DNA of 34,951 bases from positions 1-34,951 of the IMG/VR virus record IMGVR_UViG_2740892423_000023. The stretch is one strand, 5' to 3'. Shown here one piece after another: positions 3,901 through 26,076 of this stretch (position 1 is its first letter; every line of letters begins with the position of its first letter). The notes below the pieces were generated by a model that had not been told where the DNA came from, did no database searches, and was given only the letters and a program-made list of their open reading frames with translations. The position numbers and the translations under genes are program-made. Source of the DNA: a virus. Lineage: Duplodnaviria > Heunggongvirae > Uroviricota > Caudoviricetes.

Positions 3901-3953
3901 GCCGCCAGTCTGGCAGCATGGACAGGTCAGAATCAGGTGAGGGTGTTCAGCAC

Positions 3954-7148: not shown

Positions 7149-9382
7149 CAGTAAGTGCCTCCCGTGCCTCTGTTACCGTCCTGAAGGTTGTATTTATTCA
7201 CCGCCTCTGCGATAACCTGCCCGTCGAGCACCACCTGAGTGGTGACGTTAACCGGGGGCGCTGGCGGCTGTCCGCCATTCTGAACGCCGGGCTGACCACC
7301 ACGTTTACCGGATGCATTAATGGTATCAGCCGCGGTCATCCCGGCTTGCTGTCGGACTTGTTCTGGTGTCGGCAGAGAATCACCGGCGATAACCCCGGTT
7401 TTTTTCAGTTCGTCAAGATACTGCTGGATCCATTTCTCGTTTTCTGTTGAGTAACCTTCGCCAAACTGCCACCACGGCTGATATTTTTCACGGGCAGCAT
7501 CAATCAGCCACTGAGGATATTTAGCCCGTATATTTTTCCAGCGCTCCTCGCTTCCTTCGACGGCGGCGTCTTCTTCCGGGCTGGTTGCGGTAGCCAGTGC
7601 CGTAACGGTGCCACCGAAAGAAAGCAGGCCACCGGCAATGCCGGGAAGTTTTAACCCTTTGCCTTTCTTAATTGTGGTTTCAAGCACATCACCAACAACG
7701 TCGCCAATCTTGCCACCGGATTTTCCCCCGGTCAGGATTTTGACCCCGGCCCATGTCAGGGCCGCTGCGGTCATCGCTTCAATGGCGGTCGTGGCTGCCA
7801 CCACTGCCGTGGTCAGTCCCGGAAACTTTTCACCCGCCCAGCTTATGGCATCAGCCACAGCACCGGACGCATCAGCCAGCTTTTTCACGCTGTCCATTTG
7901 TGAAAATTCAAGCGTGTTTTTAGCCTGTTCGGTTTTAAAATCATTCGTGCCTGACGTGAATTCGAAATCCACATCACCAGTTCGTTGACCTTCAGGAAGT
8001 GACCGTTGTTTTTCAATTTCAGCTTCAACCTTTTTGCGAAACTCAGGATTCTGGCGGTAGGCCAGAGCGCCCAGTAGCGCCTGACGGTCCTGAAGGATCT
8101 CACCAACCCCAAACCCTTCAAGAATAGTGGCCATAGAGTCCAGAATTTCAGCCTGTTCTTTTTTATCCTTTGATGCAGCCAGTTTTTTTTGAAGTTCCTG
8201 ATAGGCCGGATTGTTTTTTACAACAGCATCAAGAACCCGGTTAAACGCCTCAATCGGATCAATGCCTCGCTCACGGGCCATGGTCATTGTTCCTGGTAAA
8301 TCAATATACTTACCGTTGGCCATTTTTATATTTGCAGCAGCATCTGCGGCCTGCTTACTGTTAATTTTATCCAGAAAATTTAGCGTGTTATTGGCTGCCT
8401 CTTTACCATTTCCGGCTGTGATACCCGCAGCTTCATTTGCTGTCAGTATCTTCTGAAAACCATCCAGACCCCACATCCCTGTTTTTTGCGCAATCCCGAG
8501 TTGCCCGGGAAGGGCTTCTGCCATGTCCTTCAGTTCAACCCGACCTTCTTTACCGGCTGCAATCGCCATATTCAGCGCAACGGGAATATCTTTATCACTG
8601 ACGTTAAAAGTATCTCTGAGGGATACTGCAATTGTCGCCAGCTCTTTTGGTAATGCACCTGATGCTGTGGCATATTTCATAATCTGCGGAAGCCATTTAT
8701 CCGCAGTGTCATAATCAACCCCTGCTGCCAACAATTCATTCATTGTGTCAGCAGCATCCTCTTTTGAGCCTCCGCCGTACATCACGGCATTTTTAATACT
8801 GCTTTTCAGTTTTTCTTTCCCGGCCTGTCGACCTGCCAGACCACCATCACTGAAGGCAGTATTGGCCATTTCACTCAATCGACGATCAAAGCTCATCTGC
8901 TTTTTGACCGGCTGTGTCATAATGGCAGTACCTGCTGCGATGCCACCACCAATCGTCAGGACGTTGCCGCCAATATTGGCCGCCTTTGCCAGCGTGCCGA
9001 CACCACGCATTTCCCGCTTCAGTTCCCGGATTTGCTCTTTCGTGGCACGCCATGCCCGCGCCTGTTCGCGGGCAGACATGACGCCACTACGGGCAAGGCG
9101 GTTATAACTGGCTTCAGTAAGGGCGATTTCCCGGCGGATTTCATGCTCCGAACGGATGCCAAGCGTTTCCCGGGCACGGGCTGCACGCTGTAATTCGGTG
9201 ACAACCCTTTTTGTGCTGTTGATGCTCTCATCATCGGTGCGTTTCTGCTCCTGACCTGCCTTTTTGGTTGCTTTTTCCACTCCTTCAGTGGCTTTTACAA
9301 CCTTCTTTTTTCCCTTTTCCAGAACCTGCGAGGCTTCGTCCTTCGCAGTCAGGGTCATGCCAACTTTGAAATTACCGGCCAT
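7148..9382 (-). CDS. Tail tape measure protein
   Basis: 744-aa ORF, Ala/Gly/Lys-rich with coiled-coil character, immediately downstream of tail chaperone. Confidence 0.85.
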   Translation of the reverse strand: MAGNFKVGMTLTAKDEASQVLEKGKKKVVKATEGVEKATKKAGQEQKRTDDESINSTKRVVTELQRAARARETLGIRSEHEIRREIALTEASYNRLARSGVMSAREQARAWRATKEQIRELKREMRGVGTLAKAANIGGNVLTIGGGIAAGTAIMTQPVKKQMSFDRRLSEMANTAFSDGGLAGRQAGKEKLKSSIKNAVMYGGGSKEDAADTMNELLAAGVDYDTADKWLPQIMKYATASGALPKELATIAVSLRDTFNVSDKDIPVALNMAIAAGKEGRVELKDMAEALPGQLGIAQKTGMWGLDGFQKILTANEAAGITAGNGKEAANNTLNFLDKINSKQAADAAANIKMANGKYIDLPGTMTMARERGIDPIEAFNRVLDAVVKNNPAYQELQKKLAASKDKKEQAEILDSMATILEGFGVGEILQDRQALLGALAYRQNPEFRKKVEAEIEKQRSLPEGQRTGDVDFEFTSGTNDFKTEQAKNTLEFSQMDSVKKLADASGAVADAISWAGEKFPGLTTAVVAATTAIEAMTAAALTWAGVKILTGGKSGGKIGDVVGDVLETTIKKGKGLKLPGIAGGLLSFGGTVTALATATSPEEDAAVEGSEERWKNIRAKYPQWLIDAAREKYQPWWQFGEGYSTENEKWIQQYLDELKKTGVIAGDSLPTPEQVRQQAGMTAADTINASGKRGGQPGVQNGGQPPAPPVNVTTQVVLDGQVIAEAVNKYNLQDGNRGTGGTY

Positions 9383-19297: not shown

Positions 19298-20949
19298 CCT
19301 CCTGAACCAAAACGCCCGTCACGGTCACGCCCGGTGCTGCGTGGGGTGTGAATCTGAAATTTTGCGCTGCGCGATACCGCCAGCGTCCACAGCATGTGCA
19401 GACAGTCCGGGCCATCATCGTGGTCGGCTTTGGGGTAGTGGCGCAGCTGGTCAATCAGCGTCTGATGTGTGTGACTGATACGAATCAGGCCGTTGGCCAT
19501 ATGCGGCTGAAGGGATTCGATACGCAGTGCCTTATCCTCCAGCGGGATGACCGGCAGCGCCGGAACCGGCACGCCCAGCGCCGCCGAACGCTCAACCAGC
19601 ACGGTACGCAGAAACTCCTGAAACTGGACGGACTCAAACGACCAGCACAGACAGTGATATTCCCGCTGATACTTAATCACGTCTTCGATAAGTTTGTTTG
19701 GCAGACGTCGGCGGATATCGGCTTCAACCACATCCAGAATGCCGGTAAAGCGGTTAAAGCCCCCCACGAGAATGGCCGACGGGTCGCGGTTTTTGTTTTT
19801 CTTCCCGAGGCTGGGGTCAACAGCGCCGTAGAATACCCATTCATCAAGACGGTTAACCCAGAATTTAATGCAGCCCGCAAACAGCGCGTCTTCACCGCTG
19901 ACCGGGTCGTTCTGGTATTCAGAATCAAAGGTGTCATGACCGTCACGGACACGGATTTTCATCAGCGCCAGCAGGGGACGCGCCGCCCATGACACCACTG
20001 ACCCGGCGAGCATGTCGGCTTCGTTCTGCCGGTAAAGTGCCTCCGCCGCTTCCGGCTGTTTATTGCGGATGAGTTCTTCCCACTCGTCCCACAGCTTCAT
20101 GTTGGCAGGCCACTGAATAACAGCCTTAAAGCGGGCCGTTTTCCACATCGGGTTATTGAGTGTGCGCGACAGCACGGAGTCGTAATGCAGGATGGTTCCG
20201 ATATAAATAATATCGGTTTTACCGCCAGCCTCGCCCAGCGGCATCACAGTTTTGGTGAGCCAGTCATGCAGCTTGTCGCGCTGCTCCGGGTTACGCACCA
20301 TCTCGTCGTTCTCGATGTCGTCGAGGATGACCAGGTCAGGACGGTACGGACCGTGGCGCAGACCACGCAGTTTTTTACCACTACCGGCAACGGTCACCTT
20401 GATATTGTTGGCCGTGACGATGGTCCCCATACGCCAGACGCGCCCCTGTCCGCACACCTCCGGGAAATCGTTTTTTAAACGGGGGTTAAATTCCAGTTCA
20501 GCCTTGATGGCTTCCAGCATCGGATAAGCCTGGTCGATACTGTCCATAATGATGACCGGGTAATGCTTAATGGCCCGGATAATGGTCCACAGGGTAAACA
20601 GCTGAGTCACCAGCGTGGATTTTGCTTCACCACGGGGCGCGGCGATGGCGTCGTTCTCCGGGGCCGGGCTTGCCACAACCTGTGGCAGACGGCTGAACAG
20701 GTATTTATGCAGCTCGCTTTTTGCCGGGTTGCGGACGTAATGCGGGAAATAGTTTTCGACAAAATAATCGTAGCCCGTCACCGGGTCGCAGACTGCCGCC
20801 CGGCGGGCCTGTGTGGCCTGCGGGTTAACATCGAACCCCAGACATTCAGCCTCGATGGTCTGGCGGAGGTTGGCGATGTATTCCTGTAAGCTTCTCTGAA
20901 ACTCTTTAATGGAAAGTTTACGTTTTGCCACGTCACACCTGGTATACAA
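19291..20949 (-). CDS. Terminase large subunit
   Basis: 552-aa ORF; deviant Walker A (AAPRGEAKST), Walker B-like LVILDDIENDE; start is TTG 20949 or GTG 20931 (AGGTG RBS). Confidence 0.8.
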   Translation of the reverse strand: MYTRCDVAKRKLSIKEFQRSLQEYIANLRQTIEAECLGFDVNPQATQARRAAVCDPVTGYDYFVENYFPHYVRNPAKSELHKYLFSRLPQVVASPAPENDAIAAPRGEAKSTLVTQLFTLWTIIRAIKHYPVIIMDSIDQAYPMLEAIKAELEFNPRLKNDFPEVCGQGRVWRMGTIVTANNIKVTVAGSGKKLRGLRHGPYRPDLVILDDIENDEMVRNPEQRDKLHDWLTKTVMPLGEAGGKTDIIYIGTILHYDSVLSRTLNNPMWKTARFKAVIQWPANMKLWDEWEELIRNKQPEAAEALYRQNEADMLAGSVVSWAARPLLALMKIRVRDGHDTFDSEYQNDPVSGEDALFAGCIKFWVNRLDEWVFYGAVDPSLGKKNKNRDPSAILVGGFNRFTGILDVVEADIRRRLPNKLIEDVIKYQREYHCLCWSFESVQFQEFLRTVLVERSAALGVPVPALPVIPLEDKALRIESLQPHMANGLIRISHTHQTLIDQLRHYPKADHDDGPDCLHMLWTLAVSRSAKFQIHTPRSTGRDRDGRFGSGGW

Positions 20950-22946: not shown

Positions 22947-23081
22947 GAGTTTCTCCTGTAAATCTGAGCCACTGACGGCCCGTAAATAACACCCTGTCAA
23001 AGGCACAAAAGCCTTTTGCAGGGCGCTATCCCTTAAGGTGCCTTGTGGTCTGAGTGGACAGGGTAAACGGTCTGGTGTGGT

Positions 23082-23108
23082 GGGTACTGCTGGGGGTGTT
23101 CAGCACCC
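23082..23108 (-). promoter_or_regulatory. Conserved 27-bp late-region motif upstream of lysis genes
   Basis: Minus-strand GGGTGCTGAACACCCCCAGCAGTACCC; 23 of 27 positions identical to the site upstream of I. Confidence 0.45.
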
Positions 23109-23133: not shown

Positions 23134-23421
23134 TTAAAGGGAAGCGAGTTTTAATGGTGGCTTATAACACGCCTGCGCAAGCAGGTTAGCTCTTTCCACG
23201 GCTTTACGCATTTCCCGTTCTGCGTCCAGCATCCTGTTTACGGCTGACAGCACTTCATTATGATTCGTTTCTGACTCCGGCCTTTGGGCCTGTCTCGCCA
23301 GATAACTGGATAAATTACATATCTCAGCATGTCGGCGACGGGCTGCATCCCGGGCCTTGTCTGAAAATGCGGTATATTCACCGAGTGCTGCGTAGTCGAT
23401 ATTGGTGTCAGAACTCATCAT
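23134..23421 (-). CDS. Hypothetical protein (95 aa)
   Basis: ORF with AAGGAGA RBS immediately after the mor terminator; no family recognised. Confidence 0.5.
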   Translation of the reverse strand: MMSSDTNIDYAALGEYTAFSDKARDAARRRHAEICNLSSYLARQAQRPESETNHNEVLSAVNRMLDAEREMRKAVERANLLAQACYKPPLKLASL

Positions 23422-23448
23422 TTCGTGTCTCCTTTTTTCTGAGTCTCA

Positions 23449-23916
23449 TTAATCAAAAAGCCCCACCTGGGTGGGGCTTTTCAGCGAAGTCTGTTTTTGT
23501 CGTCGGTGTATCAGTTGCCATGCGTACCGGTCTGAAATGCCGTAACGGGGACAGAGCAGTGCCAGCGCCTGCCGGTGTGAGCATCCGCCTTTTACATGCT
23601 GCTGTAAATCAGCCATAAAACGGGTGTTACGCAAGGCACGTAACGCATGATCGCAACGGGGAATGTAAAACGGTGCGCCGCCAAGAAAACGGATCAGTTT
23701 GTTGATTTCGTCTTCGGTCAGCACGTCATGTAACAGGGCATGGACACCGCCGGTTCGTTCGGCGTGTGCGCCGGTTTTACCGCTTAACGTCACGCCACCA
23801 AAAGAACGGATTAACCGGGTCAGGGCGGGGAAGCCAATCACGCTAATCAGTTGCTGCACGGAATCAGGCAACAGTGCCTGCGCATCGCGAAGATCTGTTT
23901 CACTGAAGGTCTGCAT
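23449..23916 (-). CDS. Mor/C-family transcriptional activator (only copy in window)
   Basis: 155-aa ORF with GGAGA RBS; C-terminal region ...FYIPRCDHALRALRN...RYGISDRYAWQLIHRR resembles the Mor/C DNA-binding region. Confidence 0.75.
   Translation of the reverse strand: MQTFSETDLRDAQALLPDSVQQLISVIGFPALTRLIRSFGGVTLSGKTGAHAERTGGVHALLHDVLTEDEINKLIRFLGGAPFYIPRCDHALRALRNTRFMADLQQHVKGGCSHRQALALLCPRYGISDRYAWQLIHRRQKQTSLKSPTQVGLFD
23455..23482 (-). terminator. Intrinsic terminator, bidirectional-type, overlapping last codons of the Mor/C gene
   Basis: AAAAAGCCCCACC-TG-GGTGGGGCTTTT; minus-strand hairpin followed by UUUUUGAUUAA; Mor stop at 23449. Confidence 0.7.
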
Positions 23917-23945
23917 GATGGCGTCTCCGGTAGTAACTTACTGTT

Positions 23946-23951
23946 ATTATA
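23946..23951 (-). promoter_or_regulatory. Consensus -10 hexamer (TATAAT on minus strand) upstream of the Mor/C gene
   Basis: Minus-strand GGCTATAATAACAG about 30 nt upstream of ATG 23916; weak -35 (TGTACA) 16-17 bp upstream. Confidence 0.4.
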
Positions 23952-23979
23952 GCCATACATGATCGCCTGTACAGACCAC

Positions 23980-24005
23980 AAAAAAGCCCCTGCAAGGCAG
24001 GGGCT
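23980..24005 (-). terminator. Intrinsic terminator between GemA and Mor/C genes
   Basis: Minus-strand AGCCCCUG-CCUUG-CAGGGGCU (8-bp stem) followed by UUUUUUGUGG. Confidence 0.65.
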
Positions 24006-24011
24006 GATTCT

Positions 24012-24434
24012 TTATTGTTTATGTGCTGCTCTGGCTCGTTTTCTGGCGTCTTTTGTCAGCGCCACCATCACCCCGAAAAGCTGTTCATCCGTCAGCCATT
24101 CGATCACATGTTGCTTATACATGTGAGATGCCAGTCCTTCTGCATACGCCCAGGAACGACCGGCATCAGCCAGCAACGCTTCAATTTTGGATAATACCGA
24201 TTTTCTGCTCATTGCAACACGGGGGCGGCGACCTTTACCGACGGGCGCTTTGCGCGGGAATCCCTGTTCGTGCATATATTCCCGGATGATGCGCAGTTCA
24301 TCGAGGTTGCAGCGTGTGGTGCTGGTTTTACCGGTCAGGCGGGCCAGCGTCTGGCGATAAAGGGCATCATCCCACCCCAGATACGCCTGACCGGCTTTAA
24401 TGGCTCCGATCATCTTTTTCAGCATGTTTGTTAT
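24012..24434 (-). CDS. gemA: GemA-like regulatory protein (DUF1018-like)
   Basis: ORF 24012-24551; start refined to ATG 24434 (MLKKMIGAIKAGQAYLGWDDALYRQTLARLTGK), characteristic N-terminal pattern; position before Mor. Confidence 0.65.
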   Translation of the reverse strand: MTNMLKKMIGAIKAGQAYLGWDDALYRQTLARLTGKTSTTRCNLDELRIIREYMHEQGFPRKAPVGKGRRPRVAMSRKSVLSKIEALLADAGRSWAYAEGLASHMYKQHVIEWLTDEQLFGVMVALTKDARKRARAAHKQ

Positions 24435-24675
24435 CCTCAAAACGCACGGTAAAACGTGAAACACCAATCCCTGACAGAAACGCGGCGGCACGGTCAAGAG
24501 ACAGCCACGTCTTGTAATCGCCACGGCGTTCCTGTAGAAAATAGGACACACCAGCGCGGCGATTCACAGCGAATAGATGATACACACCACCGAACCGCTG
24601 CACGACGAACTCATCCACGCCACCGCTTTCAGCCTGTTGCCGGAAGGCTGCCATTCCGATTTGTTCAATCTTCAT
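24397..24675 (-). CDS. Hypothetical protein (92 aa), possible DNA-binding protein
   Basis: ORF 24397-24711; ATG 24675 (MKIEQIGMAAFRQQ); no SD; preceded by palindromic hairpins. Confidence 0.45.
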   Translation of the reverse strand: MKIEQIGMAAFRQQAESGGVDEFVVQRFGGVYHLFAVNRRAGVSYFLQERRGDYKTWLSLDRAAAFLSGIGVSRFTVRFEDNKHAEKDDRSH

Positions 24676-24698
24676 AATGACCAAAACACTACTTTTGG

Positions 24699-24724
24699 CA
24701 GACCAAAACATATGTTTTGGTCTG
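24699..24724 (-). promoter_or_regulatory. 26-bp perfect palindrome upstream of the 92-aa gene
   Basis: CAGACCAAAACATATGTTTTGGTCTG; a second related inverted repeat CCAAAAC-N5-TTTTGG at 24681-24698 abuts the start codon. Confidence 0.55.
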
Positions 24725-24742: not shown

Positions 24743-24925
24743 TTACTTTGCGTTAGTGTGATTCTTCCAGCGGTTTTGCGCCGCGCTGGGCTTTTTGCAA
24801 CAGCTGTGCCCCATCACCCCGCAACACCCCGTCAACCTCACTCGTCTGTTACTAATCCTCAACCATCGCCAGATCCCAACACCGTTTCTGCGAGCTAACA
24901 GAATTTTTGCCTTACGATTTTTCAT
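24743..24925 (-). CDS. Small basic Cys-rich ORF (60 aa), hypothetical
   Basis: AGGAGAG RBS 7 nt before ATG; ATGA overlap with preceding small ORF; composition atypical. Confidence 0.25.
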   Translation of the reverse strand: MKNRKAKILLARRNGVGIWRWLRISNRRVRLTGCCGVMGHSCCKKPSAAQNRWKNHTNAK

Positions 24926-25095
24926 CGTTTTGCTCTCCTGCGTTTCTTTGCTGCTCGTCTCGCCGCCGCAATGCCTGTACGGCGTTTCGGTGCCGGGATG
25001 ATGCTGTCAGCCATCAGGACATGCGGCTTTGCAATTAGCGCAGAAGCCCAAAATCGAGTCGGATACGGTAACAAGCCGATACATGCCACACGCAT
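24922..25095 (-). CDS. Small basic ORF (about 57 aa), hypothetical
   Basis: Hand translation MRVACIGLLPYPTRFW...RRAAKKRRRAKR; GGAGGTGA SD formed by last codons of upstream gene; TAATG start overlap. Confidence 0.25.
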   Translation of the reverse strand: MRVACIGLLPYPTRFWASALIAKPHVLMADSIIPAPKRRTGIAAARRAAKKRRRAKR

Positions 25096-25484
25096 TACTC
25101 ACCTCCCTTACCCTGAAGCATGGCGGCGCAGCAGGCGTTCCATGAAATTTCCTGAAGGGAACGACGAATCTGTGTGCTGCATATACTCCTCCCTGACTCC
25201 TGGCTGTTAAACCATGTTTCAAATTCCGGCACCACCGTCGCTGGCGGGGCAGCGTAGAGTGGAATGCCTCTCCCTCCATAAGAAAATTCGTTGCGAGCGT
25301 TATACTCACGACCATCTGCGTCATCACGCATCCATGCCACCGGCTCTGCTTCCAGCGATGCCAGCGCGATACGAAACACATTGGCAAGCAGGCTGTTTGA
25401 AGATTGGTTATCGTGCGCCGGGTCGCTCAGGAAACCAGTGATGAATGATTTAATCTCCGCTTTTTCTCTGGTTATAGTGGTCAT
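25095..25484 (-). CDS. Hypothetical protein (129 aa)
   Basis: ORF 25095-25565; start refined to ATG 25484 (MTTITREKAEIKS) with AGGAG RBS, just after upstream stop. Confidence 0.5.
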   Translation of the reverse strand: MTTITREKAEIKSFITGFLSDPAHDNQSSNSLLANVFRIALASLEAEPVAWMRDDADGREYNARNEFSYGGRGIPLYAAPPATVVPEFETWFNSQESGRSICSTQIRRSLQEISWNACCAAMLQGKGGE

Positions 25485-25485
25485 A

Positions 25486-26076
25486 TCACTCTCCTTTGAT
25501 GCGAATGCCTGCGGCACGTAGCACATTAACTTCCACGATGCGCACAGTTGGTTTGTACATCTCAATTGCTGTCAGCCAGTCAGCGCCAGTCATGCGCTTT
25601 TCTGCATCGCCATTAGTCCACTTAACCGGTACACCAATAGCCTTCATCGCGATTTCTATTTCCCCGGCAATGGCGCTTTTTCCGCAACCAGTAAAACCAG
25701 ATACAACGACAAGAACTTCGCCTTTGGCTGGTTTTATTTCCCGTGCTTCCAGTTCTGCTATGCGCTTCTCTGCGGCTTCCAGCTTCTTGTAAAGAGCATC
25801 CCAACTTGTCGAGTTATCCATAACCAGCTTTGTAACCCGCTCTTCGCGTGATTTGTAATACTCCAGTTCATCCAGCAGTGCCAGCACGGTAGCCGGATTG
25901 GCTGCTGCTATGAATCGCTTATTGGCGCGATTATCTGGTCCTGAGCATGATGCTATGTAGTAATTTGCGTTCAGTCCGGCATCAGCAATTACCCCATAGT
26001 AATCATCAGAACACCATTCGCCTGGTGTTGCATTTTCTGCCGCCATTCGCAGTGCCTGATAGTTAACTTCACTCAC
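25486..26076 (-). CDS. Ead/Ea22-like protein
   Basis: 196-aa ORF, GTG start with AGGAGG RBS; N-terminal ...ALRMAAENATPGEW... typical of Ea22-like proteins of lambdoid phages. Confidence 0.6.
   Translation of the reverse strand: MSEVNYQALRMAAENATPGEWCSDDYYGVIADAGLNANYYIASCSGPDNRANKRFIAAANPATVLALLDELEYYKSREERVTKLVMDNSTSWDALYKKLEAAEKRIAELEAREIKPAKGEVLVVVSGFTGCGKSAIAGEIEIAMKAIGVPVKWTNGDAEKRMTGADWLTAIEMYKPTVRIVEVNVLRAAGIRIKGE

What the first reader, a model, noticed from the sequence alone, without database searches (positions are those of the whole stretch)
23917..24011. Single Mor/C-family activator insulated by terminators, with its own consensus -10
An intrinsic terminator (stem AGCCCCUG/CAGGGGCU plus U6) lies between gemA and the activator gene, and a second strong terminator lies directly after it. 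A perfect TATAAT hexamer (23946-23951, minus strand) with a poor -35 sits between the upstream terminator and the activator start. Mu has two paralogous activators, Mor and C, in a cascade. Here only one family member is present and it looks like a separate transcription unit driven by an activator-dependent-type promoter, implying a shortened or differently wired early-to-late cascade.
Basis: partly seen in the sequence, partly recalled or inferred. Interest (0 to 1): 0.45.

Follow-up and report, generated by a model that had tools for sequence, protein, structure and literature searches.

The report
Stand-alone promoter for phage late activator
In this Mu-like E. coli prophage the only late-gene activator sits in its own small transcription unit, between two conserved terminators and behind a conserved ordinary-looking promoter, which is a modest rewiring of phage Mu's two-step Mor-to-C relay.

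Summary
The 95-bp gemA-activator spacer holds a strong intrinsic terminator (24005-23980, minus strand) and a promoter-like site, TGTACA-16 bp-TATAAT. A second terminator lies inside the activator's last codons. No second Mor/C homologue exists in the window or in the rest of a near-identical prophage.

Comparison with 80 non-redundant relatives shows three wirings:
- the activator gene overlaps gemA, 41 loci;
- two paralogous activators act in series, 14 loci;
- this clade has terminator, promoter ("P_act") and a single activator, 18 loci from E. coli, Salmonella and Edwardsiella.

Across 17 distinct upstream contexts the hairpin persists with at least five different stem sequences. CTGTACA-N3-GATCA-N9-TATAAT stays invariant.

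A matrix built from relatives finds exactly three Mu-style late promoters in the window. Each has a 16-bp dyad, GCTGAAC...CAGC, at -51 to -36, a -10 and no -35. They precede lysis, head and baseplate genes. P_act has no such dyad, so it is not a Mor/C-dependent promoter.

A single activator is the norm in Mu-like phages and has been published. What is new is the conserved, insulated unit with a non-Mor/C promoter. What controls that promoter is unknown.

The parts
24012..24425 (-). gemA, the last gene of the early operon in this phage
   Evidence: Pfam GemA E = 2.6e-18. Annotated 'regulatory protein GemA' in a 98.9%-identical RefSeq prophage.
23980..24005 (-). Terminator 1: hairpin AGCCCCUGC-CUU-GCAGGGGCU (24005-23985) plus U-run; it ends the early transcript
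   Evidence: Scan hit. Energy -19.7 kcal/mol, z = -3.9. All 17 distinct upstream contexts keep a hairpin plus T-run, with at least 5 different stem sequences.
23959..23974 (-). Invariant element CTGTACAGGCGATCAT. It contains the -35-like hexamer TGTACA (23973-23968) and a GATC Dam site (23964-23961), and spans about -35 to -20
   Evidence: CTGTACA and GATCA are invariant in 19 distinct sequences, including Salmonella (66% aa identity) and Edwardsiella (54%) relatives, while interspersed bases vary.
23946..23951 (-). -10 hexamer TATAAT of P_act; predicted transcription start near 23939
   Evidence: the only TATAAT in the window, either strand. Invariant in all relatives of the clade. The start site is inferred, not mapped.
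23449..23916 (-). The only Mor/C-family activator gene (155 aa, 'W-type' subfamily); Shine-Dalgarno GGAG at 23928-23925
   Evidence: Pfam Mor 29.1 bits. PHROG 836 'late transcriptional activator' E = 1.2e-42. A subfamily profile hits Mu C structure 9l0x at E = 0.0011. About 27% identity to Mu Mor over a 78-residue local match, and 13 of 21 residues identical to Mu C in the best segment.
23455..23482 (-). Terminator 2, embedded in the last codons (KSPTQVGLF); the stop codon is at 23451-23449
   Evidence: Energy -20.6 kcal/mol, z = -4.2. Conserved across the clade. In Edwardsiella the stem changes CAC/GTG to CGC/GCG, which alters two codons (T to A, V to A) and keeps the pairing.
23134..23421 (-). 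95-aa gene of unknown function (PHROG 7152) between terminator 2 and the lysis promoter. It has no promoter of its own that I could detect, so it probably depends on read-through of terminator 2
   Evidence: PHROG 7152 E = 1.9e-50. Present in 18 of 18 P_act loci. No late dyad lies upstream of it.
23060..23104 (-). Predicted late promoter for the lysis genes: dyad GCTGAACACCCCCAGC (23104-23089), -10 TACCCT (23065-23060)
   Evidence: Matrix from 22 relatives' sites gives 21.0 bits against a maximum of 9.7 in shuffles; dyad alone 17.7 bits. The same motif sits at the same place in relatives.
15793..15837 (-). Predicted late promoter for the head protease/scaffold operon: dyad GCTGAACACCTTCCAC (15837-15822), -10 CATCAT (15798-15793)
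   Evidence: 25.9 bits. A homologous site is present in diverged relatives L122, L124, L125, L130 and L136.
3907..3951 (-). Predicted late promoter in the baseplate region, upstream of the gp46-like gene: dyad GCTGAACACCCTCACC (3951-3936), -10 CAGACT (3912-3907)
   Evidence: 21.5 bits; dyad alone 18.6 bits, the best in the window.

Best explanation
The gemA-activator spacer marks the boundary between the early operon and a self-contained 'middle' transcription unit.

- Terminator 1 stops transcripts coming from the early promoter.
- Immediately after it, a sigma-70-type promoter, P_act (-35-like TGTACA, 16 bp, TATAAT), starts a roughly 0.5-kb mRNA for the phage's only Mor/C-family activator.
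- Terminator 2, built into the last codons, ends most of that mRNA before the lysis genes.
- The activator then switches on three Mu-style late promoters for lysis, head and baseplate genes. Each has a 16-bp dyad, GCTGAAC...CAGC, centred at -43.5, a -10 and no -35.
- P_act carries no such dyad. It is therefore not fed by a Mor-like protein and is not auto-activated in the Mor/C manner. In this clade the Mor-dependent step of the Mu relay has been replaced by a promoter that RNA polymerase can read directly.
- The invariant non-consensus bases CTGTACA-N3-GATCA, at about -35 to -20, suggest that an unidentified early-phase input sets the timing. That input could be a phage or host protein, or the Dam methylation state after replication.

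Shown by computation: the sequence features, their conservation, the absence of a second homologue, and the late-promoter set. Inferred: promoter activity, the start site, terminator efficiency, and all regulation of P_act.
For: - Terminators: both are strong. Both are kept with compensatory changes in relatives whose activators are only 54-66% identical.
- Upstream contexts: at least five unrelated upstream gene contexts all join the same module at the hairpin.
- Promoter conservation: CTGTACA, GATCA and TATAAT are invariant in 19 distinct sequences while neighbouring bases vary.
- TATAAT: it is the only one in the window, against 7.35 expected.
- Single activator: no second Mor/C homologue.
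- Late promoters: a matrix trained on relatives finds exactly three sites in 35 kb. All are on the coding strand, all are intergenic, and they score 21-26 bits against 9.7 or less in shuffles. P_act scores -29 bits, and the dyad-only best there is -3.2 bits.
- Geometry: the dyad lies at -51 to -36 if the -10 is at -12 to -7. That equals the published Mor and C sites (PMC4287176, PMC2582627).
- Two-activator relatives: the W-type gene is the second activator and is preceded by an ACTGAACCC dyad. The same dyad marks the late promoters of phages that have only the first-type activator. This shows what a Mor/C-dependent promoter looks like in this group.
- Mu layout: Mu has the same order of terminator and next promoter after mor.
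Against: - No transcript data exist.
- A 10/12 promoter match is expected about three times per window by chance.
- The -35 lacks the TTG core.
- A promoter able to fire without phage input would make the late activator in lysogens, which should be harmful. P_act must therefore be controlled somehow, and I found no regulator: Pfam recognises no extra transcription factor among the early genes, and the early operator repeats (TTTAAAC type) are absent from P_act.
- The 95-aa gene after terminator 2 has no detectable promoter, so terminator 2 cannot be fully efficient.
Confidence: 0.55

Rival explanations
1. Read-through model. The activator is effectively the last early gene, as in relatives where it overlaps gemA. 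Terminator 1 only attenuates transcription and delays or limits activator synthesis. The TATAAT contributes little.
For: In 41 of 80 related loci the activator gene overlaps or abuts gemA with no terminator or promoter. The pE operon of Pseudomonas phage Fc02, mapped by RNA-seq, contains the gemA and mor homologues, and mor is the last gene of the corresponding operon in Mu (PMC9936078). A promoter match of this quality is expected by chance.
Against: The hexamers are invariant across 19 contexts and down to 54% protein identity, while flanking bases vary. It is the only TATAAT in a window depleted of that hexamer. The terminator is canonical and strong, with a 9-bp stem of 7 G-C pairs and a U-run, and it is maintained by compensatory change.
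Confidence: 0.15
2. Constitutive, moron-like unit. P_act fires without any phage factor, even in the lysogen, at a level too low to activate late promoters. Late expression follows only when replicative transposition multiplies the template and supplies DNA-loaded sliding clamps for the activator.
For: Promoter-gene-terminator insulation is the layout of autonomously expressed prophage genes. The activator keeps the C-terminal clamp-binding motif QVGLF. Mu C needs the clamp for activation, and family members generally carry such a motif (PMC12867686). No operator for the prophage repressor is evident at P_act.
Against: Mu C supplied alone activates late promoters in vivo and is toxic when overproduced (PMC12867686), so steady synthesis in a lysogen looks risky. 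This model does not explain why the non-consensus bases CTGTACA and GATCA are invariant.
Confidence: 0.15
3. Classical Mor/C-type control of P_act, either by positive autoregulation or by a hidden second family member, as in Mu Pm.
For: The left part of the invariant element (CTGTACA) differs by one base from the core of the late dyad (CTGAACA). In Edwardsiella a GCTGAACCC motif lies upstream of the terminator.
Against: There is no dyad at -51 to -36: that stretch is GGGGCTTTTTTGTGGT. The matrix scores are -29 and -3.2 bits. The CTGTACA sits at about -36 to -30, which is the wrong geometry. There is no second homologue in the window or in the full prophage.
Confidence: 0.05

Closest known systems
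Phage Mu middle operon: terminator after mor, Mor-dependent promoter Pm, gene C, then Plys
   Same: An intrinsic-terminator-like hairpin directly follows the last early gene and is followed within tens of bases by the promoter of the late-activator gene. The activator gene is followed by another hairpin and then the lysis promoter. Late promoters have a 16-bp imperfect dyad centred at -43.5, a -10 and no -35 (PMC2582627).
   Different: Pm has no -35 and needs Mor. Its Mor dyad (-51 to -36, AGTAAAGCCGGTTAAT) overlaps the hairpin (and the primer coordinates in PMC4390567). In this window there is no Mor-like first activator, the hairpin lies upstream (-66 to -46), a -35-like hexamer and a consensus -10 are present, and the unit holds the activator alone instead of four genes. 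The protein is only about 27% identical to Mu Mor over a 78-residue local match, and matches Mu C mainly over a 21-residue segment.
Single-activator Mu-like phages with mor coupled to gemA (Pseudomonas D3112/JBD24/Fc02 group, VW-6B, Klebsiella ST405-OXA48phi1.1, Serratia prophage L011)
   Same: They have one Mor/C-family gene, placed between gemA and the lysis genes. Late promoters carry (A/G)CTGAACCC dyads.
   Different: The activator gene overlaps the gemA stop and belongs to the early operon (PMC9936078). There is no terminator and no separate promoter.
Pasteurellaceae Mu-like phages vB_MhM_3927AP2 and SuMu
   Same: They have a single Mor homologue and lack C, as noted in PMC4553209. In 3927AP2 the record annotates terminators and a sigma-70-like promoter between gemA and the unit that holds mor.
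   Different: The promoter sequence is different. Two other genes, one an XRE-type regulator, precede mor in that unit. The activator is only about 33% identical, and there is no terminator embedded in the coding sequence.
Two-activator relatives (prophages of Xenorhabdus, Photorhabdus and 12 other non-redundant loci, e.g. L016, L017, L069, L074, L080)
   Same: The second activator belongs to the same subfamily as the window protein (44-56% identity). It is followed by the same GCTGAACCC late dyad.
   Different: A first paralogue, 36% identical to the second, lies upstream. The second gene is preceded by an ACTGAACCC dyad plus an AATACT -10, which is a Mor/C-type middle promoter, and not by P_act.
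P2 ogr / 186 B late-activator genes with their own promoters, and T4 MotA-dependent middle promoters (both recalled from memory, not tested here)
   Same: The analogy is functional only. In the first case a late activator is transcribed from a dedicated promoter. In the second a good -10 is combined with a non-consensus element near -30 that is read by an early phage protein.
   Different: The proteins are unrelated. No homologue of Ogr, B, MotA or AsiA was looked for or seen.

Membership tests
Mor/C family of phage transcription activators (Pfam PF08765) | Sequence match to the family model above the curated threshold | tested here: met
   29.1 bits against a cut-off of 24.9, E = 1e-6. PHROG 836 E = 1.2e-42. 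A subfamily profile hits Mu C structure 9l0x at E = 0.0011 and Mor 1rr7 at E = 0.76.
Mor/C family of phage transcription activators (Pfam PF08765) | Invariant linker residues GG..(F)Y(I)P.G, corresponding to C residues G70, G71, Y75, P77 and G79 (PMC2582627) | tested here: inconclusive
   FLGGAPFYIPRCD keeps GG, F, Y, I and P. The last 'invariant' G is Cys here and throughout this subfamily.
Mor/C family of phage transcription activators (Pfam PF08765) | Small size (about 100-150 aa) with the DNA-binding region near the C-terminus | tested here: met
   The protein is 155 aa. The family-model match covers residues 50-143, and the alignment to the C-terminal half of C covers residues 68-154. The extra length comes from two insertions relative to Mor and C.
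Mor/C family of phage transcription activators (Pfam PF08765) | Clamp-binding motif (C-terminal QPDLF-like), reported as general for the family (PMC12867686) | tested here: met
   C-terminal QVGLF. Q and L are nearly invariant in the 18-sequence alignment. No N-terminal Qx[DE][LM]F motif is present.
Mor/C family of phage transcription activators (Pfam PF08765) | Acts at promoters with a 16-bp imperfect dyad centred at -43.5, a -10 and no -35 | tested here: met
   Three such sites lie in the window in front of late operons. The geometry is the same in 22 relatives. Actual binding was not tested.
Mor/C family of phage transcription activators (Pfam PF08765) | Oligomeric binding (dimer or tetramer) and contacts with the alpha C-terminal domain and sigma region 4 | not testable with these tools
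   Known for Mu Mor and C (PMC4287176; bioRxiv 10.1101/2025.05.02.651988).
Mor/C-dependent promoter (Mu Pm or late-promoter type), as a classification of P_act | Activator dyad at -51 to -36 | tested here: not met
   That stretch is GGGGCTTTTTTGTGGT. The best dyad-only score in 23900-24030 is -3.2 bits, against 17.6-18.6 bits for the real sites.
Mor/C-dependent promoter (Mu Pm or late-promoter type), as a classification of P_act | No recognisable -35 hexamer (1-2 of 6 in Pm, PMC4287176) | tested here: not met
   TGTACA matches 4 of 6 at 16-bp spacing and is invariant in relatives.
Sigma-70 promoter | -10 and -35 hexamers at 16-18 bp spacing, conserved in relatives | tested here: met
   10 of 12 positions match. 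The hexamers are invariant in 19 sequences. It is the only TATAAT in the window.
Sigma-70 promoter | Transcription actually starts there | not testable with these tools
   No transcript data are available. The start near 23939 is inferred.
Rho-independent terminator (both hairpins) | G+C-rich stem-loop followed by a U-run; structure kept through compensatory change | tested here: met
   At least five stem variants occur for terminator 1. Terminator 2 shows a compensatory CAC/GTG to CGC/GCG change in Edwardsiella. Termination efficiency was not tested.

The most novel reading that the evidence does not exclude
In this clade the Mor-dependent middle promoter of transposable phages has been replaced by a sigma-70 promoter whose invariant TGTACA-N3-GATCA element couples synthesis of the late activator to the lytic state by a route outside the Mor/C family. 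One possibility is the Dam methylation state of the GATC after replicative transposition, as with the IS10 transposase promoter. Another is an unrecognised early protein acting near -30; candidates that co-occur strictly with the promoter are the 76-aa early gene at 26997-26767 and the 95-aa gene after the activator. That would be a new kind of early-to-late switch for Mu-like phages.
Probability: 0.2. Interest if true: 0.6.

Novelty: new variant of a known kind. Interest (0 to 1): 0.35.

Why it matters
The Mor-to-C relay of Mu is the textbook model for timing in transposable phages. This comparison shows that it is a minority solution. The same activator subfamily is used in three ways:
- as the last early gene;
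- as the second step of a two-activator relay;
- in this clade, in an insulated unit behind a promoter that no Mor/C protein is predicted to read.

The comparison also gives testable binding-site predictions: GCTGAAC-type dyads for this subfamily and ACTGAAC-type dyads for its paralogue. It further gives a compact, conserved promoter in which the signal that starts late development is still unknown. The practical value is modest. It should improve annotation of late promoters and terminators in Mu-like prophages of enterobacteria. These prophages are present in 58 of 5426 complete E. coli genomes, several of them STEC isolates.

Tried and rejected
- **Second Mor/C homologue.** I ran an HMM of 18 family members against all six-frame ORFs of at least 30 aa, and phmmer with Mu Mor, Mu C and three others. 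Nothing scored better than E = 0.14-0.77 except the known gene. Nothing was found in the tail end of a near-identical prophage.
- **Other transcription factors among the early genes.** Pfam found only Ner (HTH_35) and the Mu-type repressor.
- **Second copy of the P_act element.** CTGTACAGGGGATCAC lies inside the transposase gene at 33842-33827, with two mismatches and about 0.02 such matches expected (my estimate). It is present in only 2 of 19 relatives and has no -10 downstream, so it is chance.
- **Prophage repressor operators.** These are TTTAAAC-type repeats at 34360-34190. None is present at P_act.
- **Host-factor sites, by inspection only, no tool run.**
  - LexA box CTG-N10-CAG: it fits Salmonella and Edwardsiella, but the last G varies (T, C or G) while the rest is invariant.
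  - CRP, FNR and IHF: poor matches.
- **Exact-pattern scans.** The strict P_act pattern gave 0 hits in viral contigs. A relaxed pattern gave 14 metagenome loci with no Mor or GemA, so they are chance matches.
- **Rfam.** Only far-sub-threshold hits to sRNA terminators at terminator 2.
- **RNA structure in the spacer beyond the terminator.** z = -2.1, mostly due to the hairpin itself.

Full report
**What the window is.** The window is a Mu-like prophage read on the minus strand.
- The gene order is: Mu-type repressor (plus strand, 34373 to the window end), Ner, transposase A (33930-31855), B, small early genes, a 91-aa gene, gemA (24425-24012), the spacer in question, a Mor/C-family gene (23916-23449) and a 95-aa gene.
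- After these come two holins, an M15 endolysin, a DUF1804 protein, the large terminase subunit, head genes and tail genes.
- Copies of 23300-24700 that are 95-99% identical occur in 58 of 5426 complete E. coli genomes.
- In strain STEC316 the prophage lies between agaF and agaE.

**Checking the observation.**
- Terminator 1 is AGCCCCUGC-CUU-GCAGGGGCU at 24005-23985 plus a U-run. Its energy is -19.7 kcal/mol, z = -3.9, and no shuffle of 200 folds as well.
- Terminator 2 (23482-23455) has -20.6 kcal/mol and z = -4.2. It lies inside the last codons and not after the gene.
- TATAAT is at 23951-23946. The -35 is weak but not missing: TGTACA at 16 bp matches 4 of 6, giving 10 of 12 overall.
- A match of that quality is expected about three times in 35 kb by chance, and two are seen. 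The score alone therefore proves nothing.
- What does count is that this is the only TATAAT on either strand of a window depleted of that hexamer (1 seen, 7.35 expected, P = 0.01). It lies in one of the few intergenic gaps, and it is conserved.

**Is there a second Mor/C protein?** No.
- An HMM built from 18 family members, including Mu Mor and Mu C, finds the known gene at E = 1.5e-67. The next six-frame ORF scores E = 0.77.
- The part of a 98.9%-identical prophage that lies beyond the window has no hit and no such annotation.
- The protein is equally remote from Mu Mor and Mu C: 27% identity to Mor over 78 residues, and a 21-residue best segment against C. Mor and C are 37% identical to each other.
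- It belongs to a subfamily with two insertions relative to Mor and C.

**Relatives show three wirings.** I collected the protein's relatives from annotated phages, species genomes and viral contigs. I then located Mor-family and GemA genes in every locus with HMMs.
- Among 80 loci that are non-redundant by activator protein:
  - 33 have a single activator of a sister subfamily ('A-type', about 40% identical) overlapping gemA;
  - 8 have a single activator of the window subfamily ('W-type') overlapping gemA, and a ninth (L015) probably does too but was classed under 'other' because of its GTG start;
  - 14 have two activators in series, A-type first and W-type second, 36% identical to each other;
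  - 18 have the window's arrangement;
  - 7 have other arrangements.
- A single activator is therefore the rule. Its occurrence has been remarked in print for Mannheimia and Haemophilus phages (PMC4553209). In a Pseudomonas phage whose early operon was mapped by RNA-seq, that operon contains the gemA and mor homologues (PMC9936078).

**What Mor/C-dependent promoters look like in this group.**
- Downstream of every W-type gene lies GCTGAAC(C/A)C. This is the start of a 16-bp imperfect dyad, for example GCTGAACCCTCTCAGC.
- A hexamer of the TAnnnT kind (TACACT, TATACT, CACAAT) begins 39 nt after the dyad start.
- With the -10 at -12 to -7 the dyad occupies -51 to -36. That is exactly the published position of the Mor site in Pm and of the C sites in Mu late promoters (PMC4287176, PMC2582627).
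- A-type activators go with ACTGAACCC dyads. In single-A phages these sit before the lysis genes. In two-activator phages they sit before the W-type gene, while GCTGAACCC follows it.
- That pattern is what a relay predicts: the first activator reads the middle promoter, and the second activator reads the late promoters.

**Late promoters of the window.** A matrix trained on 22 relatives' sites finds exactly three sites in the window.
- All three are on the coding strand and in intergenic gaps:
  - 23104-23060, before the holins;
  - 15837-15793, before the head protease;
  - 3951-3907, before a gp46-like baseplate gene.
- They score 21-26 bits against 9.7 or less in 20 shuffles.
- On the dyad alone they score 17.6-18.6 bits, and the next best site scores 10.0.
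- The head site recurs in diverged relatives.

**P_act is something else.**
- The region 23900-24030 scores -29 bits on the full matrix and -3.2 bits on the dyad alone. The stretch at -51 to -36 is the 3' arm and T-run of terminator 1.
- All 18 loci of the clade share hairpin, T-run, 4-6 nt, then CTGTACA-N3-GATCA-N9-TATAAT. They come from E. coli, from Salmonella (66% protein identity) and from Edwardsiella hoshinae (54%).
- At least five unrelated upstream genes abut this module.
- The hairpin is always present, at -14.5 to -22.8 kcal/mol, but with at least five different stem sequences. It is therefore selected as a structure, as a terminator should be, and not as a protein-binding sequence.
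- CTGTACA, GATCA and TATAAT never vary, while the bases between them do.
- Terminator 2 is also kept. In Edwardsiella the change CAC/GTG to CGC/GCG preserves pairing at the cost of two amino-acid changes.
- Relatives with the coupled or two-activator wiring lack both P_act and the embedded terminator.

**How it most likely works.**
- Early transcripts end at terminator 1. RNA polymerase with sigma-70 starts at P_act, near 23939 (inferred). Most transcripts end at terminator 2. The activator then turns on the three late promoters.
- The layout parallels Mu. In Mu the hairpin after mor is followed at once by Pm. From primers JM6 and MLK7 in PMC4390567, Pm +1 is base 9224 of NC_000929. The Mor dyad AGTAAAGCCGGTTAAT therefore overlaps that hairpin.
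- The difference is the input. Pm has no -35 and needs Mor. P_act has a -35-like hexamer and a consensus -10, and no Mor/C site.
- What times P_act is unknown. A freely active promoter for the late activator should be dangerous in a lysogen, because Mu C alone activates late promoters and is toxic when overproduced (PMC12867686).
- The invariance of non-consensus bases at about -35 to -20 points to a bound factor or to the methylation state of the GATC.
- I found no candidate by homology.
- Two nearby genes co-occur closely with P_act. The 76-aa early gene (26997-26767) is present in 18 of 18 P_act loci and 0 of 40 others. The 95-aa gene after the activator is present in 18 of 18 P_act loci and 4 of 40 others. 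This is confounded by shared ancestry and is only a lead.

**Rivals.**
- Read-through from the early promoter, with the TATAAT irrelevant, fits the coupled relatives but not the conservation.
- A constitutive unit gated by gene dosage and clamp supply fits the insulation and the retained clamp-binding motif. It does not explain the invariant non-consensus bases.
- Mor/C-type autoregulation or a hidden paralogue is contradicted by the matrix scans and the HMM searches.

**Verdict.**
- It is partly wrong: a single activator is ordinary, and the promoter is not of the Mor/C-dependent type.
- This is a new variant of a known kind, of moderate interest. The open point is the signal that P_act reads.

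Noticed in passing
window 23466-23452 (minus strand): The 3' arm and U-run of terminator 2 (GTGGGGCTTTTTGAT) encode VGLFD. With the preceding CAG this gives QVGLF, which matches the C-terminal clamp-binding motif reported for the Mor/C family (PMC12867686). One stretch therefore serves as both terminator and protein motif. The Edwardsiella relative keeps both (QAGLF) through compensatory changes.
   Followed up: partly
window 15798-15783 and 3912-3898; L122 around 19303-19380; L125 around 17375-17450: At the predicted head and baseplate late promoters the ATG start codon begins 7-8 nt after the -10 (CATCAT-gccgcgt-ATG; CAGACT-ggcggc-ATG). The predicted start site therefore falls on the A of the ATG, which suggests leaderless mRNAs. 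The same spacing holds at the second, downstream late-promoter site found in two diverged relatives (TACGCT-ggcccc-ATG; CATGAT-gccgcct-ATG).
   Followed up: partly
loci L016, L017, L061, L064, L066, L068, L074-L077, L079-L083, just upstream of the second activator gene: In two-activator relatives a hairpin plus T-run (for example AACACCTTCC...GGAGGTGTTTTT) begins right after the AATACT -10 of the middle promoter. The predicted start lies inside the 5' arm. Upstream read-through RNA would form the full terminator, while promoter-initiated RNA would form only a truncated one.
   Followed up: no
loci (A-type versus W-type activators): The first base of the dyad tracks the activator subfamily. ACTGAAC(C/G)CC goes with A-type in 25 distinct single-activator sites and upstream of the second gene in all but one (L082) of the two-activator loci examined. 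GCTGAAC goes with W-type in 24 plus 14 sites. This is a predicted specificity determinant that separates middle from late promoters.
   Followed up: partly
window 24724-24699 (minus strand), between the preceding ORF stop and the 91-aa gene start at 24672: There is a perfect 26-bp palindrome, CAGACCAAAACATATGTTTTGGTCTG, followed by a further inverted pair CCAAAAG...GTTTTGG (the second half reading GTTTTGGTC). A weak promoter-like site (ATCACA-17-AATAAT, 24762-24734) lies just upstream. This may be an internal operator or promoter, or a structured element inside the early operon.
   Followed up: no
window 33842-33827 (minus strand), 5' part of the transposase A gene: CTGTACAGGGGATCAC differs by two bases from the P_act element. 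It is present in only 2 of 19 relatives and has no -10 after it, so it is probably chance.
   Followed up: yes
window 26997-26767 (76-aa ORF) and 23421-23134 (95-aa ORF, PHROG 7152): Both unknown genes are present in 18 of 18 loci that carry P_act. The 76-aa gene is present in 0 of 40 loci with other wirings, and the 95-aa gene in 4 of 40. This could reflect shared ancestry only.
   Followed up: partly
whole window: The hexamer TATAAT is strongly depleted: 1 occurrence on both strands against 7.35 expected from dinucleotide composition.
   Followed up: yes
window about 24760-25110 (query positions 392-743 of 25500-22500): A roughly 350-bp stretch near the Ea22-like gene (25486-26076, Pfam Ead_Ea22) is 79-93% identical to unrelated phages: phiV10, O157 typing phages, P1/RCS47 and Stx phages. 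The features annotated under those matches include ead/Ea22-like proteins. The rest of the region has no close match among phage records, so this looks like a mosaic insert in the early region.
   Followed up: no
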